Part shown: positions 34,864 through 62,812 of the stretch, piece after piece
How the letters are laid out: each line of letters begins with the position of its first letter
Numbering within the stretch: position 1 is the stretch's first letter
Source: Nitriliruptoraceae bacterium
GTDB lineage: Bacteria > Actinomycetota > Nitriliruptoria > Nitriliruptorales > Nitriliruptoraceae
Length of the DNA stretch: 64,000 bases
Direction: 5' to 3'
Assembly (NCBI GenBank): GCA_007122985.1
Contig: SKSM01000067.1
Location: forward strand, 1,784-65,783
Program-made: the position numbers and the translations under genes
Notes under the pieces: model-generated
Databases searched by the model: none
What the model saw: only the letters and a program-made list of their open reading frames with translations
Told to the model about the DNA's origin: nothing

Positions 34864-34876
34864 GATCGGTATCACG

Positions 34877-48549: not shown

Positions 48550-49812
48550 TCACCGGGTGTCGCGCAGCCCCAGTGAGGTCGGCGTGCCGCTGCCGATGAA
48601 GGTGGCGTAGGCAGGGTGGTCGAACCGGTGGAGGGTGTAGATGCACTGGTGCCATCCGAGCTGGCGGGGGTACGTCGCGAACGTGCGGTCGCGCGCGATC
48701 TTCGTGCTGGCGTTGGACTCGTTGAACTCCGCGATCGCCAGCAGCTCACCGGTGAACTCGTTGTAGTCCTGGCCGCTCTTGCCGACCACGTCGTCGAAGT
48801 AGAGCTTGGGTCGGGGCAAAAACGTCCCCTCGGCCACGTTGTCACCGAGGTGGCGCAGGACGGCGGTCGTTGCCGAGTAGAAGTCCATGTCGAACGACAT
48901 CATCCCGATCGGCGCCATGCCGGACCGGAGGGTCTCGCCGAACGTCTCGCCCGCGTCACCGAGCACGAGGTGTGCGCGAGTCAGACGCCGCCGCAGCGCA
49001 TCGACGTCCATGCGGTAGTTGCCGCCCGCGAAGAAGTAGGGCAGGTCACGGATGTCCTCGGGCTCGAACAGCCCGGCGCCGGTGTCGAAGCCGTAGACGT
49101 CGACCGAGACGCCGAATGCCTCCTCGATGCGCTCGGCGTGCCGTTCCAGGGCGAGCAGGCCGTTGCCTCCGGCGACACCGAACTCCACGGCGCTGATGCG
49201 TCGGATGCCCAGTTGCTGCGCCTGCTTGCTCGCGCGCAGCAGGCAGTAGGCGTAGGCGGGCTTCTCGATCACCGACAGCTCGACGCGTCGCGGCAGGGTC
49301 AGTCGCGCGGCGACGTCCCGCGGCACCGGCTGCTCCGACTCCTGCGCGAGACGGTCGGCGCGTCGGTAGGCGGAAGCTGCCCGGTCCCAGTCCGAGACCG
49401 CTTCCAGGGCGCGGCCGAGTCGGTAGTGATAGGCGGCGGATCGTGGGTTGCGGGCGATCGCGGCCTGGTAGGCCAGGACGGCGCCTTCCCAGTTCTTGAG
49501 CTTGGCCTGAGCCCGGCCGAGGTCGTGGTGCCACCCGGCCTTCGACGGATCGAGGTCGACGGCGCGCTGGTAGGTCTTGGCGGCTGCCGCCCACCTGCGC
49601 TTGTCGGCGGCGAGCCGTCCCTGCTGGTGGTAGCGGTGGGCGGCCGGAGAGGTCGACGGTGCCGCGTCGGCCCAGGCGCCTCGCAGACGGGCGGCGCGTG
49701 CGATGATCGGCCGGCCACCGCGGCGCGCGGCCGCCTTCAGGGCGCCCACGACACCTCTGCTGCGGATGCCCCGGCGGACGTCGCGGAGACGGTCGACTGT
49801 GTAGAGCGCCAC
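48550..49812 (-). CDS. TPR-repeat protein with C-terminal methyltransferase-like domain (function uncertain)
   Basis: GTG 49812 lies 5 nt after GGGGAG. TPR-like repeats (AAAKTYQRAVDLDP..., VLAYQAAIARNP..., ASAYRRADRL). C-terminal part contains AVEFGVAGGNG. The upstream 190 codons of ORF 48550-50391 are rejected. Confidence 0.5.
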   Translation of the reverse strand: MALYTVDRLRDVRRGIRSRGVVGALKAAARRGGRPIIARAARLRGAWADAAPSTSPAAHRYHQQGRLAADKRRWAAAAKTYQRAVDLDPSKAGWHHDLGRAQAKLKNWEGAVLAYQAAIARNPRSAAYHYRLGRALEAVSDWDRAASAYRRADRLAQESEQPVPRDVAARLTLPRRVELSVIEKPAYAYCLLRASKQAQQLGIRRISAVEFGVAGGNGLLALERHAERIEEAFGVSVDVYGFDTGAGLFEPEDIRDLPYFFAGGNYRMDVDALRRRLTRAHLVLGDAGETFGETLRSGMAPIGMMSFDMDFYSATTAVLRHLGDNVAEGTFLPRPKLYFDDVVGKSGQDYNEFTGELLAIAEFNESNASTKIARDRTFATYPRQLGWHQCIYTLHRFDHPAYATFIGSGTPTSLGLRDTR

Positions 49813-50126
49813 GATGCTCCCCGTTCCGGCTGTGCAGGCCGGCGTGTCGGTCTCGTGCGACGCACCGGCAGGTGGCATCGACGGTAACGCCGGCCGATCC
49901 CGGGTCCATGTACGAACGCCGGCACCCCGGACAGGACCTCCCGGCCGGTGGCCGGCGGGACGGGCAGCTGCGTGCGGTGAGCTGCCGACGGCGCTGGGGG
50001 ACGCCGGAGCAGTAGACTGCCCGTCGGGGCACGGGCGTGGTTGGTGACCGCGACCGATCGAACGTGTCATGCGTGCGATCGACCTCGTCCCCGAACGTGC
50101 TGTCGTCGTGCTTTGCGAGGTAGTCC

Positions 50127-50900
50127 ATGCGCATCCATCCCCGACCCACGCTGGCGTTGCTGGCCGCTGCAGCACTGTTGGCTGCCGCCTGCGGTGACGA
50201 GGACGCGGGCGAGACCGCAGCACCGGCTGCGGAAACGGAGGACGCCGGCGACGAGGACGCCGACGACGAGGCGACCGCCGACGACCAGGACGACGACGTC
50301 GCGGACGACGAGGCGGCCCCCGATGCCGACGAGTCGGACGAGTCGCCGGACGACGGACTGCTCGAGGGGCTGTCCTTCGATCCGCAGCCACTGTTCATCG
50401 AGTACCGGTTCGTACACGATCAGCCGGAGGCCCCTGAACGCATGACCATCGCCCAGGACGGTGATCGAATCGCGACCTCGTTCACGGCCCAGGGCATGGA
50501 GATGGCCAGCTTCGTCGACGGCGACGAGCTCGTCGCGTCCTGCTTCGACGACGGCAGCGGCTGGATGTGCTTGGAGCAGGATGTCGGCGACCAGGTGCCG
50601 GACGCCTCACCCGGCACCGAGCTCTTCGAGGACCCCACCCTCGACGAGGCCGAGCTGCGCGACCACTTCCTCGACCCGTACCCGGACGAGATCCAGGGCC
50701 GTGAGGTGGTCTGTGGCCGCAGCAGCGAGGTAGCGCCCGGTGAGGGCGAGATCTGCTTCGACACGGCCACCGGCGTGCTCCTGCGGGCCGAGACGAGCGC
50801 GGGCGCTGAGGGTGACCTGCTGGTCGAGGCGGTCGAGATCCGCGAGGCAACCGACGACGACTTCACACCGCCGGCCGAGCCGCAGTCGTTCGGAGGCTGA
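50127..50900 (+). CDS. putative secreted lipoprotein with acidic N-terminal linker
   Basis: Signal peptide ending LLAAAC followed by a DE-rich region. No family recognised. Confidence 0.55.
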   Translation: MRIHPRPTLALLAAAALLAAACGDEDAGETAAPAAETEDAGDEDADDEATADDQDDDVADDEAAPDADESDESPDDGLLEGLSFDPQPLFIEYRFVHDQPEAPERMTIAQDGDRIATSFTAQGMEMASFVDGDELVASCFDDGSGWMCLEQDVGDQVPDASPGTELFEDPTLDEAELRDHFLDPYPDEIQGREVVCGRSSEVAPGEGEICFDTATGVLLRAETSAGAEGDLLVEAVEIREATDDDFTPPAEPQSFGG

Positions 50901-51049
50901 GCCGACCCGACGGCGCCGGCACTGCTGTTCCCGGCCTGCTTCGCGAAGCGCGTGGGGCAGGTCGGGACGTTCGGCAGTGGGCGTGCCCGGCCCGCGGTGC
51001 CACCGTCATGTGGTGGCGGTCGGATCGGCCGGCCGCCCAGGAGCGGACC

Positions 51050-51571
51050 ATGCGTGCGCTGGTGGTGTACGAGTCGATGTTCGGCAACACCCAGACCATC
51101 GCCGAGGCGGTGGCGCAGGGGTTGTCTGAGCACCTGCATGTCGTGCTCGTCGAGGTCGAGGACGCGCCGGATCAGATCGATGCCGACATCGGGCTGGTCG
51201 TCGTCGGCGGGCCGACCCATGCATTCGGCATGAGCCGCCCCGCAACGCGCGAGGATGCCGCGGGTGAGGCGGGGGAGGGGCTGGTCTCGCGGGGGCCGGG
51301 TGTACGTGAGTGGCTCGCCGGGCTCCGCGGCGGCGCATCGGGGGTGTCGGCCGCTGCCTTCGACACCCATGTCGACAAGCGCCTGCCCGGCTCCGCGTCG
51401 CAGGCCGCCGCCAAGCGCCTGCGGCGGCTCGGCTTCCGGCTGATCGCGCGCCCGGAGAGCTTCTTCGTCGCCGACAAGGCGGGGCCGCTTCTCGTCGGCG
51501 AGGAGGAGCGTGCACGGCGCTGGGCAGCGGCGCTCGCGACGCAGACCGAGCGCGGCCGGAGCGTCAGCTGA
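51050..51571 (+). CDS. flavodoxin-like domain protein
   Basis: MRALVVYESMFGNTQTIAEAV N-terminus typical of flavodoxin-fold proteins. ATG 51050 preceded by AGGAGCGG. Confidence 0.7.
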   Translation: MRALVVYESMFGNTQTIAEAVAQGLSEHLHVVLVEVEDAPDQIDADIGLVVVGGPTHAFGMSRPATREDAAGEAGEGLVSRGPGVREWLAGLRGGASGVSAAAFDTHVDKRLPGSASQAAAKRLRRLGFRLIARPESFFVADKAGPLLVGEEERARRWAAALATQTERGRSVS

Positions 51572-51653
51572 GCTGTCAGCCGGATCCGTCGGCTTCGCGC
51601 TCGTAGACTGCTGCGTCAGCGACTCCTGCGTGCAGCGATGTGGCGGAGGGCGC

Positions 51654-52337
51654 ATGAAGCCGGCCATCCTCTGGGATTTCGACGGCACGTTGGCGACGCG
51701 GCCGGGCCACTGGTCACAGGCGATGCTCGAGGTCCTTGACGACCACGCTCCGGGGCATGGCGTCTCGCGCGAGGACCTGCGTGCCACGCTTCGCGGTGGC
51801 TTCCCGTGGCACCGGCCGTACGAGCCCCATCCCCACCTCGATGACCCGGAGCGTTGGTGGGCGGAGGTCGGACGGACACTGGCCGCCGGCTTTGCGCAGG
51901 TCGGCTATGCGCGCGACGCGGCGCTGCTGGTCGCCTCGTTCCGCGAGCAGTTCTGTGACCCCACCGGCTGGGTCGTCTTCGACGACACCGTCCCGTCGCT
52001 CGAGTCTCTGCGCGAGGCAGGCCTGCGGCACGTGATCGTGTCCAACCACATGCCCGAGCTGCCTGACCTCGTCGACGCACTGGGGATCGGCTCCTACGTG
52101 GATGCTGTCATCTGCTCGGCGTCGTTCGGACACGAGAAGCCACACCCCGCGATCTACCAGGCCGCGGTCGAAGCGACCGACGGCGCCGCGCAGCTGATGG
52201 TCGGTGACAACCCCGTGGCCGACGTCCAGGGGGCGCTGGACGTCGGGTTGGACGCTGTCCTGGTTCGACGTCGCGACGACCGCTTCCGATGGTTCGATGA
52301 TCTCGCCGGTCTCACCGCCAGCCTGCTTCAGGGCTGA
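51654..52337 (+). CDS. HAD-superfamily hydrolase
   Basis: Motif I ILWDFDGTL, motif II VSNH, motif IV MVGDNPVADV. Confidence 0.8.
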   Translation: MKPAILWDFDGTLATRPGHWSQAMLEVLDDHAPGHGVSREDLRATLRGGFPWHRPYEPHPHLDDPERWWAEVGRTLAAGFAQVGYARDAALLVASFREQFCDPTGWVVFDDTVPSLESLREAGLRHVIVSNHMPELPDLVDALGIGSYVDAVICSASFGHEKPHPAIYQAAVEATDGAAQLMVGDNPVADVQGALDVGLDAVLVRRRDDRFRWFDDLAGLTASLLQG

Positions 52338-52446
52338 CCTTGCCGTGGGCGAAGCGCCCCGACAGCTACCCTCGCCGCTGGGCCGACGACCGCGACGAGG
52401 GTCGGGGCAGACAGGCTCTTCCGGTCCGACGTCGTCGAGGAAGACC

Positions 52447-52752
52447 ATGCTCGAGATCGAGCTCACGACCGAGGCCGCTGACCTGATCCGCCGCAAGGGT
52501 GGGACGGTCGCGTTGGACTTCATCCGCGCCGTCGGCTGAGGTGGCCAGGCCGAGGTGTCGGTCGACACCTACCTGAAGGGCAAGGACACCAGCAGCTATC
52601 TGCAGGCTGCGCGTGACGACGTCGCGGTGCTGGTCTCGCCGGTGATGGCCCGTTGGTCGCAGCGGGTCAGCGTCGACGTCAAGGGCGCGCTGTTCTGGCA
52701 GTCGCTGGACGTCCGTGTCGAGCACGAGCACGGACCCGCCTGCCGGCACTGA
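52447..52752 (+). CDS. candidate small selenoprotein (in-frame UGA at 52537-52539); alternatively two short ORFs or a pseudogene
   Basis: ATG 52447 follows a GAGG SD. There are 30 high-GC3 codons, then TGA, then 70 more codons in the same frame. A SECIS-like hairpin lies downstream. The joined product resembles small CC/Se-motif proteins (recollection only). Confidence 0.45.
52546..52575 (+). promoter_or_regulatory. SECIS-like stem-loop downstream of the in-frame UGA
   Basis: Lower stem CAGG (52546-49) / CCUG (52572-75). Upper stem AGGUGUC / GACACCU (52553-59 / 52564-70). Apical loop GGUC (52560-63), with the loop about 20 nt after the UGA. Confidence 0.35.
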
Positions 52753-52766
52753 CCCGTGCGGCAGGG

Positions 52767-53405
52767 TCAGGTCGAGGCGGACGGCAGTTCGCTGGCAACC
52801 AACAGCTCGACCTGCGGATGGACCCCCTCGTTGACGTGCTCATGGAGGACGTCCGTGCTGAGCCGGGTGAAGCCAGGGATCGGCTGCGCGAGCAGGTCGG
52901 CGTCGGTGAAGGTGGAGTAGAACCGCGGCGGGTGGAGATCATCGTCGGGCAGTGGACCTTGACGATTGACGCCACCCCACCGGACCACGGTCAGCAGGCC
53001 CCCGACAGCGAGCACCCGCCGGATCTCGGTGAAGGCGGCGGACAGCTCAGCCTGCGGGACGTGGAGCAGGGAGTTGAACGCCAGTGCGGCGTCGAAGGAC
53101 GCGTCTGCGAACGGCAGCCGGGTGAAGTCGGCCACGAGTGCGTCCACGCCGCGGGCACGCGCGCGGCCGACCATCGCCGGCGACAGGTCGACCGCGACGA
53201 CCTGCAGGCCGGTGTCGCCGAGCCGCTGTGCGAGTTGGCCGGTACCGCAGCCGAGCTCCAGCGCGCGATCGCCGCCGCCTGCCCCGAGCACGCGGGCGGC
53301 CAGGTCGTCGACGATGGCCAGGCGCCAGGCGTCGGGCTCCACACGGTCACGCCGATCGGCGTCCTCGTCGTAGGCACGTCGCAGTGCGGCGGTGAACTCG
53401 TTCAT
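52767..53405 (-). CDS. class I SAM-dependent methyltransferase
   Basis: ATG 53405. ALELGCGTGQLAQRL motif I and VAVDLSPAMV post-I. The longer ORF 52767-54050 is rejected because it overlaps the GNAT gene. Confidence 0.85.
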   Translation of the reverse strand: MNEFTAALRRAYDEDADRRDRVEPDAWRLAIVDDLAARVLGAGGGDRALELGCGTGQLAQRLGDTGLQVVAVDLSPAMVGRARARGVDALVADFTRLPFADASFDAALAFNSLLHVPQAELSAAFTEIRRVLAVGGLLTVVRWGGVNRQGPLPDDDLHPPRFYSTFTDADLLAQPIPGFTRLSTDVLHEHVNEGVHPQVELLVASELPSAST

Positions 53406-53475
53406 TCTGTGCACCGTCGTTTCCGGCTGCTGCCTGCCGTGGACGAGCCGTCGGTTGTCGCACGCGTGGTCGGTG

Positions 53476-53943
53476 TCAGATCCGTACCGGGGAGGAGGGA
53501 GCGAGCGTCTTCTCGTACCGCACCTCGTGCTCGTCGGCGACGACGTAGTCGAGTGAGGTGAACGGTTCGTCGATCTGTCCATCCGGGCGGCGCGTCGCGA
53601 TGACCTCGACCCCGGTGCAGCCGTGGCGTGCGGCGAGCGACTCCGCCTCGGACACCAGGGCGCGTTCGATGCGGTCGCGCGCTCCACCAGGTGGCACGGC
53701 CAGGGTGGTGATCCGGGCGAACCGTCCAGCGACGACGAACCGGGGGACGACGCTGAGCGTGAGCAGCCCGACCGCCTCGGCGTCACTGACAGCCGCAAGG
53801 ACGTGGTCGGCGCCGGAGCGGCTGAACCACCGTAGCCGGTCGGCGATGTCGTCGTCCGACGCCGGGTATCCCAGCTCGTCCAGCAGCCGCGTGACGCTGC
53901 CGGCGTCGGCGGGCTCGGCTTTGCGTACCTGTAGTTGGTCCAT
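53476..53943 (-). CDS. GNAT family N-acetyltransferase
   Basis: 155 aa. LAVPPGGARDRIERALVSEAESLAARHG acetyl-CoA binding region. Confidence 0.8.
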   Translation of the reverse strand: MDQLQVRKAEPADAGSVTRLLDELGYPASDDDIADRLRWFSRSGADHVLAAVSDAEAVGLLTLSVVPRFVVAGRFARITTLAVPPGGARDRIERALVSEAESLAARHGCTGVEVIATRRPDGQIDEPFTSLDYVVADEHEVRYEKTLAPSSPVRI

Positions 53944-54166
53944 ACCCCGACGCTACGCCGCCGTGCGGATGACGGCTGACCAACCGGCCCGGTCGTCCGG
54001 TCACCGCAATCGGCGGGTCCGGGACGCTGTGCTGCTCGCCAGGCGCGCACCGATGGAACGGCGGCCCTGAGCTAGCGTCGGTGGTCCCGTCCGACCGGGT
54101 CGGGCCTCTGACCTCGGTCGCGCCGGTTCCACGTCCCGTGCACGTCCATCAACCGGAAGGTGACCC

Positions 54167-55816
54167 GTGAGCGACCACCACTACGACTACGTGATCGTCG
54201 GCGGGGGATCGGCCGGCAGCGCGCTGGCGAACCGGCTCAGTGCCGACCCCGCCAATGAGGTGCTCGTGCTGGAGGCCGGGCGGCGGGACTACCGCTGGGA
54301 CGTGTTCATCCACATGCCGGCTGCACTGACCTACCCGATCGGCAGCCGGTTCTACGACTGGTGCTACGAGTCCGAGCCCGAGCCCAACATGCACGGCCGC
54401 CGGGTGTTCCACGGCCGAGGCAAGGTGTTGGGCGGCTCGTCGAGCATCAACGGGATGATCTTCCAGCGCGGCAATCCGCTCGACTTCGACCACTGGGCCA
54501 GCGAGCCGGGCATGGACAGCTGGGACTACGCCCACTGTCTGCCGTACTTCAAGCGCATGGAGACCTGCCTGGCCGGTGCCGACCAGTGGCGCGGCGGCGA
54601 CGGACCGCTCGTGCTCGAGCGCGGCGAGGCGGACAACCCGCTGTTCACCGCGTTCCTCCAGGCAGCCCAGCAGGCCGGCTATCCGCTGACCGACGACGTC
54701 AACGGCTACCGGCAGGAGGGGTTCGCCCGGTTCGACCGGACCGCCTACCGGGGACGCCGACTCAGTGCCTCGCAGGCCTACCTCCACCCGGTGGAGGACC
54801 GCGCCAACCTCACGGTCATCACCCGGGCGCATGCGGCGCGGGTGGTCTTCGACGACGACCGCCGTGCCCGTGCGGTCGACTACATCCACCGGGGCCGGCT
54901 GCGGCGGGTGCACGCCGCCGAGATCATCCTCTGCGGCGGCGCGGTCAACACCCCGCAGCTGCTGCAGCTCTCCGGCGTCGGCAACGCGCGCGAGCTCGAG
55001 CAGGTCGGCGTGCGACCGGTCCACGACCTGCCCGGGGTCGGCGAGAACCTCCAGGACCACCTCGAGGTCTACATCCAGCACGCCTCGAGCCAGCCGGTGT
55101 CCCTCCAGCCCCAGCTGGCGTGGTGGCGCCGACCGCTGATCGGTGCACAGTGGCTGTTCCTGCGCTCTGGGCCAGGGGCGACCAACCACTTCGAAGCAGG
55201 CGGGTTCGTCCGGACCAACGACGCGGTGGACCGACCGAACCTGATGTTCCACTTCCTGCCCATCGCCATCCGCTACGACGGCACCGCACCCGCAGAGGCA
55301 CACGGCTACCAGGTGCACATCGGGCCGATGTTCTCCGACGTCCGCGGGACGGTGAAGATCGCCTCACGCGATCCGCGTGACCCACCGAAGCTGCGCTTCA
55401 ACTACCTCTCCACCGAACGTGACCGCAGCGAATGGGTCGAGTCGGTGCGCACCGCTCGCGAGATTCTCGCCCAGCCCGCGTTCGAGGAGTTCGACGCCGG
55501 CGAGCTACAGCCCGGAGCCGACGTCCAGACCGACGAGCAGATCCTCGACTGGGTCGCCAGCGACGCCGAGACGGCCTACCACCCCTCGTGCACGGCCAGG
55601 ATGGGCACCGACGGCCAGTCGGTGGTCGATCCCGACACGATGAAGGTGCACGGGCTCGAGGGCCTGCGCGTCGTCGACGCCTCGGTGATGCCGCGCATCA
55701 CCAACGGCAACATCTACGCGCCGGTGATGATGATCGCGGAGAAGGCCGCAGACCTCGTCCTCGGCAACACCCCACTGCCCGCCGAGCACGTACCCGTCTA
55801 TCACCACGGCGGCTGA
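54167..55816 (+). CDS. GMC family oxidoreductase (choline dehydrogenase-like)
   Basis: [23 protein letters not shown] motif, [13 protein letters not shown] and C-terminal HPSCTARMG active-site context. Confidence 0.85.
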
Positions 55817-55824: not shown

Positions 55825-56916
55825 TCAGCAGATGCGTGGCAGTGGGTCGCCGACCAGCATGTCCACCACACGGCTGCCGCCCATGGCGGTGCGCATCACC
55901 ACGGTGCTCGCTGGCTCGGCGCGGATCTCGCCGATCACGGCGGCGTCCGCACCGAGCGGATGGGCGCGCAGCGCGTCGATCGCGGCCTCGGTCTGCGCGG
56001 CCGGGACGACCGCGACCAGCTTGCCCTCGTTGGCCACGTAGATCGGATCGATGCCCAGCAGGTCGCAGGCGCCGGCCACCGTCGGTCGCACCGGCAGTGC
56101 CTCCTCTGCGAGGATGACCCCGCAGCCGGCGGCCTCGGCCAGCTCGTTGAGCGAGGTGCCGAGCCCCCCGCGGGTCGGGTCGCGCAGCCAGCGGGTGTCG
56201 GGAGCGGCGGCCAGTAGGGCCTCGGCGAGCTCGTGCAGCGCAGCGGTGTCGGAGGCGATGTCGGCCTCGATCGCGAGCTCGCCCCGGGCGAGCATCACGG
56301 CCATGCCGTGGTCGGCCAGCGTGCCGGTGAGCACCACCGCGTCGCCCGGCTCGACCGTGCGCGCGTCCAGCCGGCGTCCGACCGGGACGTGGCCGACGCC
56401 GGTGGTGGTGATGTAGACGCCGTCGGCGGCGCCGGCTTGCACGACCTTGGTGTCGCCGGTGACGATCCGCACGCCGGCCGCACGCGCGGCCGCGGCCATG
56501 TCGGCGACGATGGCGCGCAGCTCGGCGACCGCGAAGCCCTCCTCGATCACGAACGCGACCGACAGCCAGTCGGGGCGGCCGCCGCCGGCCACGACGTCGT
56601 TGATCGTGCCGTTGACGGCCAGGTCGCCGATCGAACCGCCGGGAAACCGGCGCGGCTGGACCACGAAGGAGTCGGTGCTGATCGACAGCTGTTCGCCGAC
56701 GGCAGGCGGGTCGAGCACGGCCGCGTCACCAAGCGCGGCGAGCGCGGGATCGTCGAACACCTCGAGGAACACCGCGTCGACCAGCGCCCGCGACGCCTTG
56801 CCCCCGGCGCCGTGGGCGAGGGTTACCCGTTCGTCACGCAGCCTCGGCCGGCGCGCGCGGACCGCGGCGATCCGCTCGTCGACGGTCGCGCGGTCGGGAC
56901 GGTCCGGACCGGTCAT
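55825..56916 (-). CDS. hypE: hydrogenase maturation protein HypE
   Basis: ATG 56916. LAHGAGGKASRALV N-terminal motif and C-terminal PRIC. ATGA overlap with hypD. Confidence 0.9.
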   Translation of the reverse strand: MTGPDRPDRATVDERIAAVRARRPRLRDERVTLAHGAGGKASRALVDAVFLEVFDDPALAALGDAAVLDPPAVGEQLSISTDSFVVQPRRFPGGSIGDLAVNGTINDVVAGGGRPDWLSVAFVIEEGFAVAELRAIVADMAAAARAAGVRIVTGDTKVVQAGAADGVYITTTGVGHVPVGRRLDARTVEPGDAVVLTGTLADHGMAVMLARGELAIEADIASDTAALHELAEALLAAAPDTRWLRDPTRGGLGTSLNELAEAAGCGVILAEEALPVRPTVAGACDLLGIDPIYVANEGKLVAVVPAAQTEAAIDALRAHPLGADAAVIGEIRAEPASTVVMRTAMGGSRVVDMLVGDPLPRIC

Positions 56917-58067
56917 CGGCGGGCCCGATCGGCGCTGACCAGCGGCAGCGGGTCGGGCTCGTCGGCCACCCGCAGCCGCCCGAACTCGTAGTAGGCGGCG
57001 CAGGCACCCTCCGACGACACCATGCAGGTGCCGATCGGCGTTTCCGGCGTGCAGGCGGTGCCGAACACCCCGCACTCCCAGGGCTTGAGCACCCCGCGCA
57101 GCACCGGGCCGCACTCACAGGCCGGCGGGTCCTCCACACGCGCTCCGGGCAGGGTGAAGCGGCGTTCGCTGTCGAGGTCGGCGTAGGGCTCAGCGATGGC
57201 CATGCCGCTGTGCGGGATCCAGCCGAGCCCGCGCCACTCGAAGGTGTCGCGGGTGGTGAACACCTCCTCGAGCAGCTGCTGTGCCCGGAGGTTGCCTTCG
57301 TCCCGCACCACGCGGGTGTACTGGTTCTCGACCCGGCAACGCCCCTCGTCGTACTGTCGCAGCAGCATCTCGATCGCCTGGATCACGTCCAGCGGCTCGA
57401 ACCCCGCGGTCACCAGCGGGATCGAGAACTCGTCGGGGATGAACTGGTACGGCCGGTTGCCGATGACCGTCGACACGTGCCCCGGGCCGATGAAGCCGTC
57501 CAGGTCGAGTTCGGGCGCCGTGAGGATCGCCCGCAGCGGCGGGACGATGCGCACGTGGTTGCTGAAGACGCTGAAGTTGTCGATGCCGAGCGCCCGGGCG
57601 CGCTGCAGCGTCACCGCCGTCGACGGCGAGGTCGTCTCGAACCCGACGGCGAAGAACACCACGTGCCGATCGGGCTCACGCTCGGCGACCGCGAGCGCGT
57701 CGAGCGGGGAGTAGACCATCCGCACGTCCGCGCCGCCGGCCTTGGCGTCCAGCAACGTCGAGGTGGAGCCCGGCACACGCATCATGTCGCCGAACGAGGT
57801 CAAGGTCACCCCGGGCTGCGCCGCGAGGTGCAGCGCGTCGTCGACCCTGCCCATCGGGATCACGCAGACCGGGCAGCCGGGGCCGTGGACCAGCTCGACC
57901 GGAGCGGGCAGCAGCTGCTCGATGCCGTGGCGGTAGATGGTGTGGGTGTGGCCTCCGCACACCTCCATGAACTTAAAGCCGCGGTCCTGCGCGGCGGCGA
58001 GCGCAGTGATGCGCTCGATCGCGGCGCGGCCGGCCGCCGGGTCGCGGAACTCGTCGACGAACTTCAC
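56913..58067 (-). CDS. hypD: hydrogenase maturation protein HypD
   Basis: GTG 58067 (VKFVDEFRD). FMEVCGGHTH, GPGCPVCV and C-terminal CxxC-rich region. Confidence 0.9.
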   Translation of the reverse strand: MKFVDEFRDPAAGRAAIERITALAAAQDRGFKFMEVCGGHTHTIYRHGIEQLLPAPVELVHGPGCPVCVIPMGRVDDALHLAAQPGVTLTSFGDMMRVPGSTSTLLDAKAGGADVRMVYSPLDALAVAEREPDRHVVFFAVGFETTSPSTAVTLQRARALGIDNFSVFSNHVRIVPPLRAILTAPELDLDGFIGPGHVSTVIGNRPYQFIPDEFSIPLVTAGFEPLDVIQAIEMLLRQYDEGRCRVENQYTRVVRDEGNLRAQQLLEEVFTTRDTFEWRGLGWIPHSGMAIAEPYADLDSERRFTLPGARVEDPPACECGPVLRGVLKPWECGVFGTACTPETPIGTCMVSSEGACAAYYEFGRLRVADEPDPLPLVSADRARR

Positions 58068-58333
58068 GGGCTGGACTCCGGTGCGGGGTCGGGTGGCAGG
58101 TCGGTGATGGCGGTGCCGGCGTGGACCAGCACCCGGTCGCCGACGGCCACCGTCGCCAGCAGCGTCGTGTCGACCGTCTGGACTCCGGCGGAGGTGCGCG
58201 CCCGCACGGTGTGGTCGTCCACCACCTCGACGACCTGGGCGACCTGGCCGTCGTCGGAGCAGGTCACGCACACCTGGGCCGGGCCGGGTGCCGCGACGCT
58301 GACGGCGGGACGGACGGGCCGGTCGGCGTTCAC
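58064..58333 (-). CDS. second HypC/HupF-like chaperone paralogue (start uncertain)
   Basis: C-terminal VAVGDRVLVHAGTAI matches the HypC fold. GTG 58333 overlaps the hypC stop behind GGAGGAGG. The alternative GTG 58273 would give a Met-Cys N-terminus (MCVTCSDDG). Confidence 0.55.
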   Translation of the reverse strand: MNADRPVRPAVSVAAPGPAQVCVTCSDDGQVAQVVEVVDDHTVRARTSAGVQTVDTTLLATVAVGDRVLVHAGTAITDLPPDPAPESSP

Positions 58334-58680
58334 GGCGCCTCCTCCGGGCCAGTCGGCGTCGACGGCCGGGGTGCGCCGCCACCGAACTGCACCAACGGGT
58401 CCATCGCGCTGGCGGCGGCGAACTCCTCGCGCTCGCCTTCGTAGACCTCGCCGAGGGCACGCAGTGAGCGCAGTGTCTCGTTGGCCTCGGCCTCGTCGAT
58501 GCGTGACATCGCGAAGCCGACGTGGATCAGCACCCACTCGCCCTGCTCGATCGGTGGCTCGGCGCCGTCGGCGAACAACGCGATGGAGATCTCACGGCGC
58601 GCGCCCTCGACCTCCGCGGTCGCGCGGTGGGGATCGTCGGCGTCGAGCGCGACGACCTGACCGGGGATCCCGAGACACAT
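58330..58680 (-). CDS. hypC: hydrogenase assembly chaperone HypC
   Basis: Canonical MCLGIPGQVV N-terminus and WVLIHVGFAM core, with a longer than usual C-terminal tail. Confidence 0.85.
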   Translation of the reverse strand: MCLGIPGQVVALDADDPHRATAEVEGARREISIALFADGAEPPIEQGEWVLIHVGFAMSRIDEAEANETLRSLRALGEVYEGEREEFAAASAMDPLVQFGGGAPRPSTPTGPEEAP

Positions 58681-58947
58681 GCGAGCTCCTCTGACGGGGG
58701 CAAAGGGTGCGGCAGCTCAAACCGGGGTCGGCCGGTCTGAGGACGATGCTAGAGGTGTGGCGTGTCGTCGACCCGGGCCACAGGCCCCTGCCTGCGGGGG
58801 ACGTGCGAACCTAGATCCGAAGGTCTCTGTGGTGGTCTGATCGGTGGTGCACACAGGGCCGGACGGCCGGTGGGGACGTCTGCGCGTCGCGGGCGGGGCG
58901 GCCCTACCGTTGCCGGAGCGGACACCGACGACGGCGGAAGGCGCGCA

Positions 58948-61269
58948 GTGGCCGAGGCGACGCGTCGGCACCTGCGGGTGCAGGGCACCGTCCAGGGCGT
59001 CGGCTTCCGGCCCTACGTCCATGCGCTGGCGACGGGGCTCGGGCTCGTCGGCCGGGTCGGCAACGATGCACGCGGCGTGTTCATCGAGGTGGAGGGGCCG
59101 TCGGCGGCGGTGGTGAGCTTCGTGGAGCGGCTGGCGGTCGAGGCGCCGCCGCTGGCCTCGATCGACGGCATCGACGTCGACACCATGCCGGTGGCCGGCG
59201 ACACGGCCTTCACCATCGCCGCGAGCCCCCCCGGAGGGCAGCGCCGTACGCTCGTGCCACCAGACGTCGCCACCTGCGACGACTGCCTCGCCGAAGTGCT
59301 CGATCCAGCCGACCGTCGGTACGGCTATGCGTTCACCAACTGCACCAACTGCGGCCCGCGCTACTCGATCGTCACCGACGTGCCCTACGACCGGCCGAAC
59401 ACCACCATGGCCGGCTTCACGCTGTGTCGTGACTGTCGGGCGGAGTACGAGGACCCGACCGACCGGCGGTTCCACGCCCAGCCGACCTGCTGCCCCGACT
59501 GTGGGCCGAGGCTCGCGTTCACCCACCCCGACGGTGCGCCGATCGACGGCGCGCCGCTCGAGACCGCAGCCGCCTGGCTGTGTGGCGGGCGGGTGGTGGC
59601 GGTCAAGGGGATCGGGGGCTACCACCTCGCCGTCGACGCCGGCGACGACACCGCAGCGGCCACGCTGCGGGCCCGCAAGCTGCGCGAGGACAAGCCGTTC
59701 GCCCTGATGGTCGCCGACCTCGCCGGCGCACGTCGGCTGTGTCGGGTGGACGCCGCCGCCGAGGGGCTCCTGGTCGACCCGTCACGGCCGATCGTGCTGC
59801 TGCCGCGCCGGCACGACGGGCAGCAGGTGGCCGACGCGGTCGCGCCAGGCCGTGACGAGCTCGGGGTCATGCTGGCCTACACCCCGCTGCACCACCTGCT
59901 GCTGCGGGCGGTCGACCGCCCGTTGGTGATGACCAGCGGCAACCGCTCCGACGAGCCGATCGTCCACCGTGATGCGGACGTGGCCGCAGCACTCGGCGAC
60001 ATCGCCGATGCGGTGCTCACCCACGACCGGCCGATCCACGTACGGGTGGAGGACTCGGTCGTGCAGGTGGTCGACGGCGCCACGGTCCCGATCCGCCGTG
60101 CCCGTGGCGCGGCGCCCCGGCCGCTGCCCCTGCCGGTGCAGGCATCGCGTGACCTGCTGGCCGTCGGTGCCGAGCTCAAGAGCACCGTCTGCCTGGTGCG
60201 CGACCGGCAGGCATGGGTCTCGCCCCACCTCGGCGACCTGCAGGACCTCGAAGCGCTGCAGGCCTTCCGCGAGGCCATCGACCACCTCGCCCGGCTCTAC
60301 GACGTGCATCCCGAGATCGTCGCCCACGACCTGCACCCGCGCTACCTGTCCACCCAGCATGCGCTGGAGATGGACGGGGTGGAGACGGTCGCGGTGCAGC
60401 ACCACCACGCGCACATCGCCGCGTGTCTGGCCGACAACGACCGCACCGGCCCGGTGATCGGCGTCGCCTACGACGGCACGGGCTACGGGACCGACGGCAC
60501 CGTGTGGGGTGGTGAGCTGCTGGTGGCCGACCTGGCCGGATTCGAGCGGGTCGGGCACCTCGCGCCGGTCCCGCTGCCCGGCGGCGAGCAGGCGATCCGC
60601 GAGCCCTGGCGGATGGCCGCCAGCTACCTCGACGTCGCACTGTCGGGGTCGGTGCCGTCGTCGCTGCGGCTGGTGGGGCGACACCGCGACCGCTGGGACG
60701 ATGTGGTGGCCGTCGCCCGCGACGGCCGGTTCGCGCCCGACACCACCAGCATGGGCCGGCTGTTCGACGCTGTCGCGGCGCTGCTCGGCATCCGCGACGT
60801 GACCACCTACGAGGGTCACGCCGCGATCGAGCTCGAGCAGGCCGCCCGCCGCGCCGACGGGGACGGGCGTGGACTGGCCGGCACGGGCGGGCTCGTGCCC
60901 GACGAGCAATCCGGTCGGCTCGTGTTGCCCGGTCCAGCGGTGGTCGCCGCCGTGGTCGAGGAGCTGCGCGCCGGCACGCCGGTCGCGCAGATCGCCGCAC
61001 GCTTCCATGTCACGGTCGCGGAGCTGACGACCGCGGCCTGTGTGCGCATCGGTGAGCGCACAGGGCTCGGCACCGTCGCCCTGTCCGGCGGCGTCTTCCA
61101 GAACGTGCTGCTCTCGCGCCTGCTGACCCGGCTGCTGTCGGCGCACGGCTTCGAGGTGCTGCGCCACCGGCGCGTACCGCCCAACGACGGCGGCATCAGC
61201 TTCGGGCAGGCGGCGGTCGCCGCCGAACTGGACGGCAGTCGGGCGGCCCCGGAGGTCAGGGGGGTCTAG
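58948..61269 (+). CDS. hypF: carbamoyltransferase HypF
   Basis: GTG 58948 after GGAAGG. Acylphosphatase domain (VQGTVQGVGFRPYV); two Zn-finger pairs (CDDC...CTNCGPRY, CRDC...CPDCGPRL); YrdC- and Kae1-like domains. Confidence 0.9.
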   Translation: MAEATRRHLRVQGTVQGVGFRPYVHALATGLGLVGRVGNDARGVFIEVEGPSAAVVSFVERLAVEAPPLASIDGIDVDTMPVAGDTAFTIAASPPGGQRRTLVPPDVATCDDCLAEVLDPADRRYGYAFTNCTNCGPRYSIVTDVPYDRPNTTMAGFTLCRDCRAEYEDPTDRRFHAQPTCCPDCGPRLAFTHPDGAPIDGAPLETAAAWLCGGRVVAVKGIGGYHLAVDAGDDTAAATLRARKLREDKPFALMVADLAGARRLCRVDAAAEGLLVDPSRPIVLLPRRHDGQQVADAVAPGRDELGVMLAYTPLHHLLLRAVDRPLVMTSGNRSDEPIVHRDADVAAALGDIADAVLTHDRPIHVRVEDSVVQVVDGATVPIRRARGAAPRPLPLPVQASRDLLAVGAELKSTVCLVRDRQAWVSPHLGDLQDLEALQAFREAIDHLARLYDVHPEIVAHDLHPRYLSTQHALEMDGVETVAVQHHHAHIAACLADNDRTGPVIGVAYDGTGYGTDGTVWGGELLVADLAGFERVGHLAPVPLPGGEQAIREPWRMAASYLDVALSGSVPSSLRLVGRHRDRWDDVVAVARDGRFAPDTTSMGRLFDAVAALLGIRDVTTYEGHAAIELEQAARRADGDGRGLAGTGGLVPDEQSGRLVLPGPAVVAAVVEELRAGTPVAQIAARFHVTVAELTTAACVRIGERTGLGTVALSGGVFQNVLLSRLLTRLLSAHGFEVLRHRRVPPNDGGISFGQAAVAAELDGSRAAPEVRGV

Positions 61270-61294
61270 GCTGCATCGTGCGGAGGGGGTGGCC

Positions 61295-62731
61295 GTGAAG
61301 AGGTCAGACTGGGACGCGGTGCTCGACGCGGCCGTGGCGGCGGCGCGCTCCTACCTCGCCTCACTGCCCGATCGACGCGTCTATCCCGACACCTCGCCCG
61401 ACGAGGTCCGGGCGGTCGTCGACGTCCCCCTGCCCGACCGTTCGCTGCCGCCCGCGGAGGTCGTAGCCGAACTCGCCCGCGAGCTCGAGCCGTTCGTGAC
61501 CGCGCACGCCTCGGGCCGCTACTTCGGGTTCGTCATCGGCGGGCTGCACCCGGCCGCCTACGGCGCGGAGCTGCTGGTGTCCACGTGGGACCAGAACGCC
61601 GGGCTGTACGCGCCGACCCCCGGTGTCGCCATCGTGGAGGAGGTCGCGGTCCGGTGGCTCGTCGATCTCCTCGGGCTGCCCGAGCACAGCTCGGTCGGCC
61701 TCGTCACCGGTGGGCAGATGGCCAACTTCACCTGCCTGGCGGCGGCCCGCGACCACGTCCTGCGGACGGTCGGATGGGACGTCGAGGCCGACGGGCTCCC
61801 GGGTGCGCCACGGATCCACGTGGTGGTCAAGACCGGCCGGCACACGACGGTCACCCGCGCGCTGCGGTACCTCGGGCTGGGCGAGCGCACGATCATCGAG
61901 GTCGGCTGCGACGACCAGGACCGCCTGCTGGTCGAGGAGCTGCGGGCGACGCTGGCCTCCCTGGAGGGCCCCACGATCGTCTGCGTGGAGGCCGGCAACA
62001 TCAACACCGGCTCGTTCGACCCGTTCGACGCGGTCGCCGACGTCGCCGATGGGCACCGCGCCCGGGGCAACCCGACGTGGGTCCACGTCGACGGCGCCGT
62101 GGGGCTGCTGGCGGCCGCGTCGGCGGCGCACGTCGACCTCACCGCCGGCGTCGAGCGGCTGGACTCCTGGTCCACCGACGGCCACAAGCTGCTCAACGTG
62201 GCCTACGACTGCGGGATCGCGATCTGTCGCGATCCGGCGCCGCACCGCGCAGCGATGAGCGTGCGGGCGAGCTACCTGGTCCAGGGTGACGGCGAGACCC
62301 GCGAGGCGATGGACTGGAACCCGGAGTTCTCCCGCCGCGCGCGCGGAGTCGGCGTCTACGCCACCCTGCGCTCGCTCGGACGCGACGGCGTGGCCGACCT
62401 CGCGGTGCGCACCACCCGGCTCGCACGGCGCTTCGCGGCGGCGCTGGCAGCCGATCCCCGCGCTGAGGTCGTCAACGACGTGGTCTTCAACCAGGTCCTG
62501 GTGCGGTGGCTCCCACCCGACGATCACGACCCGGACGACTTCAACGACCGCGTCGTCGCGGCCATCCAGGCCGACGGGACCGCGTTCGTCAGTGGCACCA
62601 CCTGGCGGGATCACCGGCTGATGCGCATCTCGGTGTCCGACTGGGCGACCGACGAGCCCGACGTCGATCGCACGGTCGCGGCGATGCTGCGCTGTGCGCA
62701 GCGGCTCGCAGCGGGCGCCGACGCGCGGTGA
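61295..62731 (+). CDS. PLP-dependent (group II) decarboxylase family protein
   Basis: TGGQMANFTCLAAAR and the STDGHKLLNV PLP-Lys context. GTG 61295 lies 8 nt after GGAGG and only ~25 nt after the hypF stop. Confidence 0.8.
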   Translation: MKRSDWDAVLDAAVAAARSYLASLPDRRVYPDTSPDEVRAVVDVPLPDRSLPPAEVVAELARELEPFVTAHASGRYFGFVIGGLHPAAYGAELLVSTWDQNAGLYAPTPGVAIVEEVAVRWLVDLLGLPEHSSVGLVTGGQMANFTCLAAARDHVLRTVGWDVEADGLPGAPRIHVVVKTGRHTTVTRALRYLGLGERTIIEVGCDDQDRLLVEELRATLASLEGPTIVCVEAGNINTGSFDPFDAVADVADGHRARGNPTWVHVDGAVGLLAAASAAHVDLTAGVERLDSWSTDGHKLLNVAYDCGIAICRDPAPHRAAMSVRASYLVQGDGETREAMDWNPEFSRRARGVGVYATLRSLGRDGVADLAVRTTRLARRFAAALAADPRAEVVNDVVFNQVLVRWLPPDDHDPDDFNDRVVAAIQADGTAFVSGTTWRDHRLMRISVSDWATDEPDVDRTVAAMLRCAQRLAAGADAR

Positions 62732-62812
62732 GCCCGCCCTCGACGGCTCAACGCAGCTGACCCCGGTGGGCGCAACCGCCGGTTGCACCCATGTGGCCTG
62801 CGACGCGGACGG

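What the first reader, a model, noticed from the sequence alone, without database searches (positions are those of the whole stretch)
52447..52752. Candidate selenoprotein gene: in-frame UGA with a SECIS-like hairpin
ATG 52447 (GAGG SD 6 nt upstream) opens a frame with very strong G/C third-position bias. It meets TGA at 52537-52539 after only 30 codons. The same frame then stays open for 70 more codons to TGA 52750-52752. Neither half looks like a stand-alone protein. Joined, the product is MLEIELTTEAADLIRRKGGTVALDFIRAVG-U-GGQAEVSVDTYLKGKDTSSYLQAARDDVAVLVSPVMARWSQRVSVDVKGALFWQSLDVRVEHEHGPACRH. This resembles ~100-aa proteins I recall being annotated as a CC/Se motif (seleno)protein family, where Cys or Sec sits just before a GG. 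Fourteen nt after the UGA lies GGUGUC-GGUC-GACACC, extendable by an A-U pair and a lower CAGG/CCUG stem. The GGUC apical loop and the ~20-nt UGA-to-loop distance resemble the E. coli fdhF SECIS and fit bacterial SECIS models. A [NiFe]-hydrogenase cluster lies 3 kb away, but no sel genes are in this window.
Basis: partly seen in the sequence, partly recalled or inferred. Interest (0 to 1): 0.75.

Follow-up and report, generated by a model that had tools for sequence, protein, structure and literature searches.

The report
Unannotated small selenoprotein gene, IscA-like fold
This is very probably a real 101-residue selenoprotein gene, whose in-frame UGA and the hairpin after it are kept in some 70 related bacteria; gene callers cut it in half, and it belongs to a known but uncharacterised family whose predicted fold resembles iron-sulfur carrier proteins.

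Summary
ATG 52447, with GAGG 6 nt upstream, opens a frame that meets TGA at 52537-52539 and continues to TGA 52750-52752.

Comparative data support selenocysteine (Sec):
- In 71 distinct homologous loci (window included; Nitriliruptoria, Acidimicrobiia, Dehalococcoidia/Chloroflexota) the same codon is TGA. The 30 upstream codons evolve mainly by synonymous change.
- Five Nitriliruptoraceae loci and about 20 database proteins have Cys there.
- The hairpin GGUGUC-GGUC-GACACC (52554-52569) fits the published bacterial SECIS model. It is invariant in 71/71 Sec forms, synonymous sites included, and absent from the Cys forms.
- Many relatives replace Cys99 with a second UGA followed by its own SECIS-like hairpin.
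- Two relatives carry a Sec-containing selD 8 kb away.

The protein is a near-threshold relative of NCBIfam NF041239, the "CC/Se motif family (seleno)protein" (38.7 bits, cutoff 40). A modelled Cys homologue has an IscA/SufA-like fold. Sec31, Cys99 and His101 fall at the positions of the IscA ligands Cys35, Cys99 and Cys101.

No selA, selB, selC or selD lies in the window, and the rest of the genome could not be searched.

Verdict: supported; a new member of a known kind.

The parts
52437..52440 (+). Shine-Dalgarno-like GAGG, 6 nt upstream of the ATG
   Evidence: Read directly from the sequence. AGGA is also present in the close relatives L093 and L007.
52447..52752 (+). Complete coding sequence of a 101-residue selenoprotein: MLEIELTTEAADLIRRKGGTVALDFIRAVG-U-GGQAEVSVDTYLKGKD...EHEHGPACRH
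   Evidence: Translation. The full length matches NF041239. Full-length Cys homologues exist. Seventy other Sec-form loci have the same architecture.
52537..52539 (+). In-frame UGA read as selenocysteine (residue 31); equivalent to Cys35 of E. coli IscA
   Evidence: TGA in 70/70 full-length Sec-form sequences and Cys in the others. hhalign places it on IscA Cys35.
52553..52570 (+). SECIS hairpin A-GGUGUC-[GGUC]-GACACC-U, lying within codons Glu36 to Tyr42
   Evidence: It fits the bSECIS model: 4-nt loop starting GG, 7-bp stem, 20-nt spacing, -10.8 kcal/mol. It is present in 71/71 Sec forms. Synonymous sites are frozen, with third-position entropy 0-0.19 bits against mostly 0.7-1.9 elsewhere. 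L030 carries a compensatory change (GGUAUC/GAUACC), and L072, L074 and L089 carry G.U changes. It is absent from Cys forms.
52555..52752 (+). The 65-residue GTG-started ORF that gene callers report instead of the whole gene (a truncation artefact)
   Evidence: the ORF listing. About 100 database entries of 62-69 aa correspond to this piece alone. One is Egibacter rhizosphaerae ER308_08385.
52741..52749 (+). Cys99-Arg100-His101, the C-terminal ligand-like motif. The Cys99 codon is a second UGA in 29 relatives.
   Evidence: Searches show GPACRH against QPT-U-SH. hhalign puts Cys99 on IscA Cys99. His101 is then in register with IscA Cys101; that last step is my reading of the C-x-H against C-x-C spacing, not the printed column.

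Best explanation
52447-52752 encodes one 101-residue polypeptide. UGA 52537-52539 is decoded as selenocysteine by the standard bacterial route. In that route the hairpin 52553-52570 acts as the SECIS element, binds SelB carrying Sec-tRNA(Sec), and delivers it to the ribosome paused at the UGA 20 nt upstream of the loop (inferred from the fit to the model and from conservation).

The protein is a divergent member of the CC/Se-motif selenoprotein family (NCBIfam NF041239; Pfam PF28096). Its predicted fold is that of A-type iron-sulfur carrier proteins (IscA/SufA/HesB). Sec31, Cys99 and His101 occupy the positions of the three cluster-ligating cysteines of IscA (Cys35, Cys99, Cys101).

The most likely function is therefore to bind and hand over an Fe-S cluster, or another thiophilic metal, through a Sec/Cys/His site. 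That site is probably formed between the body of the protein and its flexible His-rich C-terminal tail (HxHxxxCxH). A redox-active selenenylsulfide between Sec31 and Cys99 is an alternative chemistry on the same two residues.

Shown: the gene structure, the Sec/Cys pair, the RNA-level constraint and the fold similarity. Inferred: SelB dependence in this organism, and the ligand role.
For: Sec codon.
- TGA sits at the same column in 70/70 non-redundant full-length Sec forms from three classes in two phyla.
- Cys sits there in 5 loci and about 20 database proteins.

Translation on both sides of the UGA.
- Ala-21, Gly-13, Gly-12, Ala-9 and Asp-7 are 69-70/70 conserved, each with 2 to 4 synonymous codons.
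- Gly+1 and Gly+2 are likewise conserved with synonymous variation.
- In the N-terminal segment, all 3 differences between the window and L093 are synonymous. Between the window and L007 my count is about 10 synonymous against 3 non-synonymous.

SECIS.
- All four criteria of the published bSECIS model are met.
- Codons +5 to +10 use one codon in 63-70 of 70 sequences. Ser+7 is TCG in 70/70, whereas Ser+18 uses six codons.
- One compensatory change and three G.U changes keep the stem paired.
- Cys forms encode EVVAD instead of EVSVD and lack the hairpin.

Independent support within the family.
- Twenty-nine relatives carry a second UGA at the Cys99 position.
- Of these, 23/29 have a bSECIS-like hairpin with varying stems and G[GU]-type loops just past the stop. 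Only 4/42 Cys99 controls have one at the same place.
- Two Acidimicrobiales loci carry selD about 8 kb away. That selD itself has UGA at the E. coli Cys17 position (HGAG-U-ACK).

Family. NF041239 is the only NCBIfam hit and is full-length. The true NF041239 member P0189 (63.8 bits) aligns without gaps at 32% identity.

Fold.
- The AlphaFold model of the Cys homologue P0050 (65% identical, pLDDT 85) was searched against the PDB.
- Ten of its 11 best hits (E below 0.1) are IscA/SufA-type or annotated Fe-S-biosynthesis proteins: SufA, IscA, HI1723, DsrR, AQ_1857 and 2p2e. TM-scores normalised to the query are 0.44-0.68.
- A profile-profile alignment gives E = 4.2e-5 over 94 columns, placing Sec31 on Cys35 and Cys99 on Cys99.
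Against: - No selA, selB, selD or tRNA-Sec lies in the 64-kb window. The source genome was not available, and its species is not among the GTDB representatives (best match 80%).
- No Rfam family covers the hairpin. Thermodynamics alone is unremarkable (z = -1.09). A competing local hairpin exists in the window.
- The family HMM score is below the curated cutoff (38.7 against 40).
- Pfam Fe-S_biosyn, TIGR00049 and TIGR01911 do not hit the protein. The link to IscA rests on a model of a homologue and on a moderate hhalign probability (42%, run in global mode).
- The C-terminal tail that carries Cys99 is modelled with low confidence (pLDDT 50-60), so the proximity of Sec31 and Cys99 is not shown.
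- No conserved gene neighbourhood points to a pathway.
Confidence: 0.85

Rival explanations
1. The UGA is a true stop. The locus would encode a 30-residue peptide and, separately, a 65-residue protein started at GTG 52555, which is what gene callers annotate. Alternatively it would be a pseudogene or an assembly error.
For: Every automatic annotation found calls only the 62-69-residue piece, sometimes with a 29-40-residue upstream ORF. The Sec machinery was not seen in the window.
Against: - Full-length Cys forms show that the two parts are one protein.
- The TGA is kept in 70/70 diverged sequences, whereas a pseudogene would decay.
- Codons between the TGA and the GTG are conserved as Gly-Gly.
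- GTG 52555 lies inside the invariant hairpin, and in Cys forms the same Val codon lies within the continuous reading frame.
- An independent contig carries the same TGA.
Confidence: 0.04
2. The UGA is read through, but not as Sec. It could be decoded as Trp or Cys by a near-cognate or suppressor tRNA, or under a reassigned code, with the hairpin merely stimulating read-through.
For: Two JGI gene calls translate these TGA codons as W (P0055, P0058). The machinery for Sec was not verified in this genome.
Against: - The gene's own terminator is TGA (52750-52752), so TGA is not reassigned in this genome.
- The aligned residue in homologues is Cys, never Trp, in real TGG-free sequences.
- The loop and spacing match the SelB-type SECIS model.
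- A Sec-containing SelD lies beside the gene in two relatives.
- The W calls are best explained by gene calling under code 4 or 25.
Confidence: 0.04
3. It is a genuine selenoprotein, but a thiol/selenol oxidoreductase rather than a metal or Fe-S carrier. Sec31 and Cys99 (Sec99 in relatives) would cycle between selenol/thiol and selenenylsulfide (or diselenide), like most uncharacterised small selenoproteins.
For: - Exactly two chalcogen residues are conserved, and the second switches between Cys and Sec.
- The review PMC13188914 notes that most uncharacterised prokaryotic selenoproteins carry redox motifs.
- Redox genes such as flavodoxin, FMN reductase and thioredoxin-like genes appear nearby in some loci.
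Against: - The fold is not thioredoxin-like. Nearly all the best structural matches are IscA/SufA-type proteins.
- The two residues plus His101 map onto the IscA ligand positions.
- A conserved HxH...C/U-x-H tail suggests metal ligation.
- The neighbouring redox genes are not conserved across clades.
Confidence: 0.3

Closest known systems
CC/Se motif family (seleno)protein, NCBIfam NF041239 ('Moor_selen_rel'; hypothetical selenoprotein first predicted in Moorella thermoacetica) and Pfam PF28096
   Same: - The size is the same, about 100 residues.
- It is the only NCBIfam hit and aligns end to end: 3-90 of the protein to 2-89 of 91 profile positions.
- The window protein is 32% identical, without gaps, to the bona fide member P0189.
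- The Sec/Cys position lies in the same G-x-G loop.
- Cys homologues of the window protein carry PF28096, as P0189 does.
   Different: - The score is 38.7 bits, under the curated 40-bit cutoff. Other members of this clade score 19-40.1.
- The motif is G-U-G-G rather than the G-C-C-G of P0189. The window's Sec aligns with the first Cys of that pair.
- The review lists the family as CxxU with one Sec. This clade has no Cys at position -3 and includes two-Sec forms.
- The clade has a His-rich C-terminal HxHxxx[C/U]xH tail.
A-type Fe-S carrier proteins IscA / SufA / ErpA (HesB fold; PDB 1x0g, 1s98, 2d2a)
   Same: - The predicted fold is the same (Foldseek probability 1.00, TM-score 0.53-0.68).
- The N-terminal 'I-x-L-T/S-x-x-A' strand-helix is shared.
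- Sec31 aligns with Cys35 and Cys99 with Cys99. His101 is in register with Cys101.
- The ligand-bearing C-terminal tail is flexible in both.
   Different: - No sequence-family HMM for IscA/HesB matches the protein.
- The ligand set would be Sec/Cys/His rather than Cys3.
- No isc or suf genes are adjacent.
- Cluster binding is untested.
HesB-like selenoprotein (TIGR01911, listed with motif UxGP) and IscA/HesB family NF038090
   Same: These are small HesB-type proteins in which Sec replaces the first conserved Cys. They set a precedent for Sec at this structural position (review table; the models hit E. coli IscA).
   Different: Neither model hits the window protein at E <= 1. The loop sequence differs (U-G-G-Q against UxGP). 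The lineage is different.
E. coli fdhF SECIS
   Same: A short G+C-rich hairpin follows the UGA. It has an apical GGUC loop, with the G-U of the loop about 22-25 nt from the UGA. The E. coli details are from my own knowledge of that element and were not re-derived here.
   Different: The loop lies about 2 nt further from the UGA, and no bulged U is present in the stem. The stem sequence is unrelated.

Membership tests
Bacterial (SelB/SECIS-dependent) selenoprotein gene | In-frame UGA conserved among orthologues, with coding conservation on both sides | tested here: met
   TGA in 70/70 non-redundant full-length Sec forms. Flanking residues are conserved with synonymous variation.
Bacterial (SelB/SECIS-dependent) selenoprotein gene | Cys-containing homologues with Cys aligned to the UGA | tested here: met
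   GVG-C-GK in P0003, P0007, P0008, P0041-P0054 and in loci L017, L021, L022, L036, L067.
Bacterial (SelB/SECIS-dependent) selenoprotein gene | bSECIS model: loop of 3-9 nt with G in its first two positions, stem of 4-16 bp, 16-37 nt between UGA and loop, MFE <= -7.5 kcal/mol | tested here: met
   Loop GGUC, stem of 7 bp, spacing 20 nt, -10.8 kcal/mol. The criteria come from PMC13188914. 71/71 Sec forms have the same hairpin at the same offset.
Bacterial (SelB/SECIS-dependent) selenoprotein gene | selA, selB, selC (tRNA-Sec) and selD present in the same genome | not testable with these tools
   None lies in the 64-kb window. The rest of the genome is not available. In relatives L056 and L084 a Sec-containing selD lies about 8 kb from the gene.
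Bacterial (SelB/SECIS-dependent) selenoprotein gene | Selenium in the protein product | not testable with these tools
   This needs 75Se labelling or mass spectrometry.
CC/Se motif family (seleno)protein, NCBIfam NF041239 | HMM score at or above the curated cutoff of 40 bits | tested here: not met
   38.7 bits, E = 7.9e-10, with U replaced by C. Clade members score 19.1-40.1, and the true member P0189 scores 63.8.
CC/Se motif family (seleno)protein, NCBIfam NF041239 | Adjacent Cys-Cys/Sec pair (as in GCCG of P0189), or CxxU as listed in the review | tested here: not met
   The window has R-A-V-G-U-G-G, with no Cys at -1, +1 or -3. Which residue is Sec in canonical members could not be checked.
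Pfam PF28096 | Match to the Pfam model | tested here: inconclusive
   The local Pfam copy lacks PF28096: neither the window protein nor P0003 gives any hit. Precomputed annotation assigns PF28096.1 to Cys homologues 51-65% identical to the window protein and to P0189.
A-type Fe-S carrier (IscA/SufA/HesB; Pfam Fe-S_biosyn, TIGR00049) | Match to the sequence family models | tested here: not met
   No hit at E <= 1 in Pfam or NCBIfam. The PDB sequence-profile search finds no IscA.
A-type Fe-S carrier (IscA/SufA/HesB; Pfam Fe-S_biosyn, TIGR00049) | HesB/IscA fold | tested here: met
   The model is of homologue P0050, not of the window protein itself. Ten of the 11 Foldseek PDB hits with E below 0.1 are SufA, IscA, HI1723, DsrR, AQ_1857 or the putative Fe-S biosynthesis protein 2p2e.
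A-type Fe-S carrier (IscA/SufA/HesB; Pfam Fe-S_biosyn, TIGR00049) | Three cluster-ligand cysteines (C35, C99, C101 in E. coli IscA) | tested here: inconclusive
   hhalign puts Sec31 on C35 and Cys99 on C99. The third position is His101 (C-x-H against C-x-C). E = 4.2e-5 and probability 42%.
HesB-like selenoprotein TIGR01911 | Match to the model | tested here: not met
   There is no hit at E <= 1.

The most novel reading that the evidence does not exclude
The gene represents a distinct, so far unrecognised selenoprotein subfamily. It is spread through Nitriliruptoria, Acidimicrobiia and Dehalococcoidia and is truncated in the roughly 200 Sec-form database entries seen here. In this reading an IscA-type metal or Fe-S carrier scaffold uses selenocysteine as a direct ligand: Sec/Cys/His, or Sec/Sec/His in the two-Sec forms. 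It would be a natural selenium-ligated A-type carrier. It would also be the first evidence in the searched literature that Nitriliruptoria decode UGA as Sec.
Probability: 0.3. Interest if true: 0.6.

Novelty: new member of a known kind. Interest (0 to 1): 0.45.

Why it matters
Annotation. Every automatic annotation of Sec forms of this gene that I found is a truncated 62-69-residue "hypothetical protein". This includes the complete genome of the isolate Egibacter rhizosphaerae. The curated NCBI model misses the clade by 1-2 bits. Lowering that cutoff, or building a model for the clade, would correct the roughly 200 truncated entries seen here. It would also add Nitriliruptoria to the lineages that use Sec.

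Biology. The CC/Se-motif family is listed as a hypothetical protein in the review read here. The link shown here to the IscA/SufA fold places Sec, Cys/Sec and His on the three cluster-ligand positions. That gives a concrete and testable hypothesis: metal or Fe-S binding through selenium.

SECIS. The element is invariant across two phyla. It constrains the peptide EVSVDT and is lost in Cys forms. This is an unusually clean natural example of an RNA signal constraining protein sequence.

Tried and rejected
- Rfam, at gathering thresholds over the whole window and at permissive E-values over 52400-52800, found no relevant family.
- ARAGORN found no tRNA in the window and no tRNA-Sec in any of the fetched loci.
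- tblastn with E. coli SelA, SelB and SelD found nothing in the window. Only selD in L056 and L084 was found elsewhere.
- The AIRS-domain gene at 55825-57114 was considered as a possible selD. It is hypE (TIGR02124, 407 bits).
- A functional link to the hyp/[NiFe]-hydrogenase genes was rejected. Neighbourhoods differ between clades, and no neighbouring family recurs outside close relatives.
- The alternative hairpin 52548-52563 was also rejected. It is favoured by energy in the window, but its 5' arm lies in variable codons.
- A scan of the window for other TGA-split ORFs with a downstream hairpin found no second candidate selenoprotein.
- A sequence-profile search of the PDB found nothing meaningful.
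- 'Hypothetical protein DG' (NF049953, motif GUxG), seen in the review, was considered. That model does not hit the protein.
The Cys homologue P0050 was modelled instead.
- A literature search for selenocysteine together with Nitriliruptoria, Egibacter or Acidimicrobiia returned nothing relevant.
Full report
**1. The observation**

- GAGG lies at 52437-52440, and ATG at 52447 follows a 6-nt spacer.
- TGA at 52537-52539 comes after 30 codons. The frame then stays open for 70 more codons to TGA 52750-52752.
- G+C at third codon positions is 0.93 in the 28 codons before the internal TGA and 0.86 in the 28 after it.
- The hairpin A-GGUGUC-[GGUC]-GACACC-U occupies 52553-52570. Its dG is -10.8 kcal/mol.

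Two details are weaker than stated.
- The proposed lower CAGG/CCUG stem is not conserved in homologues.
- Folding 52537-52600 as a whole gives only z = -1.09 against shuffles. A competing local hairpin at 52548-52563 appears in the minimum-energy fold.

**2. Homologues show a single gene with a Sec/Cys pair**

I searched the joined product with U written as C.
- It returned three full-length proteins of 101-105 residues from Nitriliruptor-type MAGs and 37 proteins of 62-68 residues. The short ones correspond only to the part downstream of GTG 52555.
- In the full-length proteins, Cys aligns exactly with the UGA: GVG-C-GK against AVG-U-GG.
- I fetched DNA around several of the short proteins. 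Each has the same in-frame TGA, preceded by a conserved N-terminal segment of about 30 residues.

A scan of one genome per GTDB species gave 80 loci. They come from Nitriliruptoraceae/Nitriliruptoria, Acidimicrobiia and Dehalococcoidia/Chloroflexota MAGs.
- Among 76 distinct coding sequences, 71 have TGA at this column and 5 have TGC or TGT. All five Cys forms are Nitriliruptoraceae or unclassified Actinomycetota.
- A profile search of 1.84 billion cluster representatives found only 86 clusters, and most are the truncated piece.
- One truncated entry is the "hypothetical protein ER308_08385" of the complete genome of the isolate Egibacter rhizosphaerae.

**3. Both sides of the UGA are translated**

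Among the 70 full-length Sec forms, several upstream residues are 69-70/70 conserved while each uses two to four synonymous codons. These are Ala-21, Gly-13, Gly-12, Ala-9 and Asp-7. Gly+1 and Gly+2, which lie between the UGA and the gene-callers' GTG, behave the same way.

An independent assembly contig (L093) is about 98% identical in DNA by my estimate from the three-sequence alignment, and it has the same TGA. Its three differences from the window in the N-terminal segment are all synonymous. Against L007 my count is about 10 synonymous and 3 non-synonymous changes in that segment. These data exclude a sequencing error, a pseudogene and a two-gene arrangement.

**4. The hairpin is under RNA-level selection and fits the bacterial SECIS model**

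The review PMC13188914 gives four criteria:
- an apical loop of 3-9 nt and an upper stem of 4-16 bp;
- G in one of the first two loop positions, usually followed by G or U;
- 16-37 nt between the UGA and the loop;
- MFE of -7.5 kcal/mol or lower.

The window element has a GGUC loop, a 7-bp stem, a 20-nt spacing and -10.8 kcal/mol. All 71 Sec forms have the same hairpin at the same offset.

The six codons that encode it are GAG GTG TCG GTC GAC ACC.
- They are essentially fixed at synonymous sites. Third-position entropy is 0-0.19 bits, against mostly 0.7-1.9 bits elsewhere (a few upstream codons are lower, down to 0.42).
- Ser+7 is TCG in 70/70, whereas Ser+18 uses six codons.
- The few changes keep the stem paired. 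L030 has GGUAUC...GAUACC, changed on both sides. L074, L072 and L089 have G.U pairs.
- The Cys forms encode EVVAD instead of EVSVD and cannot form the hairpin.

So the peptide EVSVDT is conserved because the RNA is conserved.

**5. Further support from relatives**

In 29 relatives (Acidimicrobiia, Dehalococcoidia) the codon for Cys99 is a second in-frame TGA, two or three codons before the stop (HKHQPT-U-SH).
- In 23 of these 29, a hairpin meeting the same SECIS criteria lies just past the stop. The stems have different sequences and the loops are of the G[GU] type.
- Only 4 of 42 Cys99 forms have such a hairpin at the equivalent place.

In two Acidimicrobiales loci, selD lies about 8 kb from the gene. 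That selD has TGA at the position of E. coli Cys17 (HGAG-U-ACK). Those genomes evidently decode UGA as Sec.

**6. What could not be shown**

The window contains no tRNA and no selA, selB or selD. The AIR-synthase-like gene at 55825-57114 is hypE. The window's species is not among the GTDB representatives, where the best match is 80%, so its genome could not be examined. No tRNA-Sec lies in any fetched locus. I found no paper on selenocysteine in Nitriliruptoria.

**7. What the protein is**

NCBIfam gives one hit, NF041239 "CC/Se motif family (seleno)protein". It covers the full length, with E = 7.9e-10 and 38.7 bits against a 40-bit cutoff.
- Other members of the clade score 19-40.1 bits.
- P0189 carries a GCCG motif and scores 63.8 bits. 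It aligns with the window protein without gaps at 32% identity, and the window's Sec falls on the first Cys of its pair.
- Both P0189 and the Cys homologues of the window protein carry the precomputed Pfam accession PF28096. The local Pfam copy lacks that model.
- The review lists NF041239 as a hypothetical protein from Moorella thermoacetica, with motif CxxU and one Sec.

This clade is therefore a divergent branch of a known, uncharacterised selenoprotein family. It has G-U-G-G instead of a Cys-Cys/Sec pair, and it has a conserved HxHxxx[C/U]xH C-terminal tail.

**8. Fold and likely mechanism**

- The model has pLDDT 85 and pTM 0.76.
- Ten of its 11 best PDB matches (E below 0.1) are IscA/SufA-type or annotated Fe-S-biosynthesis proteins: SufA 2d2a; IscA 1x0g, 1s98 and 1r94; HI1723; DsrR; AQ_1857; and 2p2e. 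TM-scores normalised to the query are 0.44-0.68.
- A profile of 102 family sequences aligned to IscA/SufA/ErpA gives E = 4.2e-5 over 94 columns.
- That alignment puts Sec31 on IscA Cys35 and Cys99 on IscA Cys99. The C-x-H of the window lies in register with the C-x-C of IscA. This last point is my reading of the spacing; the printed alignment places His101 two template columns further on.

The best-supported reading is an IscA-like carrier with a Sec/Cys(Sec)/His site. It would bind an Fe-S cluster or another thiophilic metal.

A selenenylsulfide redox couple on the same residues is the main functional rival. The tail is modelled with low confidence, so proximity of the residues is inferred by analogy only.

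**9. Context**

The neighbours are as follows.

| Coordinates | Strand | Gene |
|---|---|---|
| 48550-50391 | - | TPR protein |
| 50127-50900 | + | hypothetical protein |
| 51008-51571 | + | flavodoxin |
| 51510-52337 | + | HAD hydrolase |
| 52447-52752 | + | selenoprotein |
| 52767-54050 | - | SAM methyltransferase |
| 54167-55816 | + | GMC oxidoreductase |
| 55825-57114 | - | hypE |
| 56913-58460 | - | hypD |
| 58753-61269 | + | hypF |
| 63267-63998 | - | C-terminal part of a [NiFe]-hydrogenase large subunit |

The four upstream genes are syntenic with L007. Beyond close relatives, no neighbouring gene family recurs. The proximity to the hydrogenase genes carries no weight.

**10. Verdict**

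The gene is very probably a genuine selenoprotein gene that annotation pipelines truncate. It is a new member of a known kind, namely the CC/Se-motif family. It sits just outside the curated family threshold, and it now has a structural hypothesis (IscA-like) that makes its function testable.

The main reservation is that the Sec machinery of the source genome is unverified.

Noticed in passing
Related loci, e.g. L029, L038, L055, L082 (about 10290-10360 in locus coordinates); not in the window: In 29 Acidimicrobiia and Dehalococcoidia homologues the Cys99 codon is a second in-frame TGA, 2-3 codons before the stop. In 23 of these 29 a SECIS-like hairpin follows in the 3' untranslated region, with variable stems and GGUC, GGUG or GUUG loops. 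Only 4 of 42 Cys99 forms have one.
   Followed up: partly
L056:1490-2525 (-) and L084:~1247-2296 (-): selD lies about 8 kb from the family gene in two Acidimicrobiales MAGs. It is itself a selenoprotein gene, with TGA at the position of E. coli SelD Cys17 (MARRLTQFSHGAG-U-ACK). No selA or selB was detected in the same 20-kb loci.
   Followed up: partly
window 18085-22140 (+): A 1351-residue class II (B12-dependent) ribonucleotide reductase is interrupted by an intein that carries a LAGLIDADG homing-endonuclease domain (residues about 426-789).
   Followed up: no
window about 24000-40800: A low-G+C island has 58-64% G+C against about 72% in the flanks, with rising GC skew and genes all on the + strand. 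The genes include two xylose-isomerase-like TIM barrels, a DHDPS-family enzyme, an NMT1-type ABC transporter, a GFO/IDH/MocA oxidoreductase, a luciferase-like monooxygenase and a CoA transferase. The island ends at an ISL3-family transposase (39467-40825, -). It is probably horizontally acquired.
   Followed up: partly
window 55825-63998: The region holds hypE (-), hypD (-), hypF (+), a PLP-dependent decarboxylase (61127-62731, +) and the C-terminal part of a [NiFe]-hydrogenase large subunit, which is cut by the window end. That subunit most resembles VhuA and sulfhydrogenase-type enzymes. Its C-terminal part contains no in-frame TGA, so it is not a [NiFeSe] enzyme.
   Followed up: partly
Database proteins P0055 and P0058 (JGI): These two full-length gene calls carry Trp at both UGA positions (PPLG-W-SG... 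RPT-W-TH). The contigs were apparently called under a genetic code that reads TGA as Trp, and this hides the Sec codons.
   Followed up: no
Database proteins P0127 (7138 aa, 10 matched stretches), P0184 (1698 aa) and P0199 (614 aa, 5 stretches): Large repetitive proteins match the middle of the family profile at E = 1e-15 to 1e-3. P0199 looks like a Gram-positive surface protein with tandem repeats of about 90 residues. I could not tell whether this reflects a shared beta-rich domain or a spurious match to repeats.
   Followed up: no
window 52548-52563 (+): An alternative hairpin GGCCGA-GGUG-UCGGUC overlaps the 5' arm and loop of the conserved SECIS hairpin and is preferred in the local minimum-energy fold. 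Its 5' arm lies in codons that vary among homologues, so it is probably specific to this sequence.
   Followed up: yes
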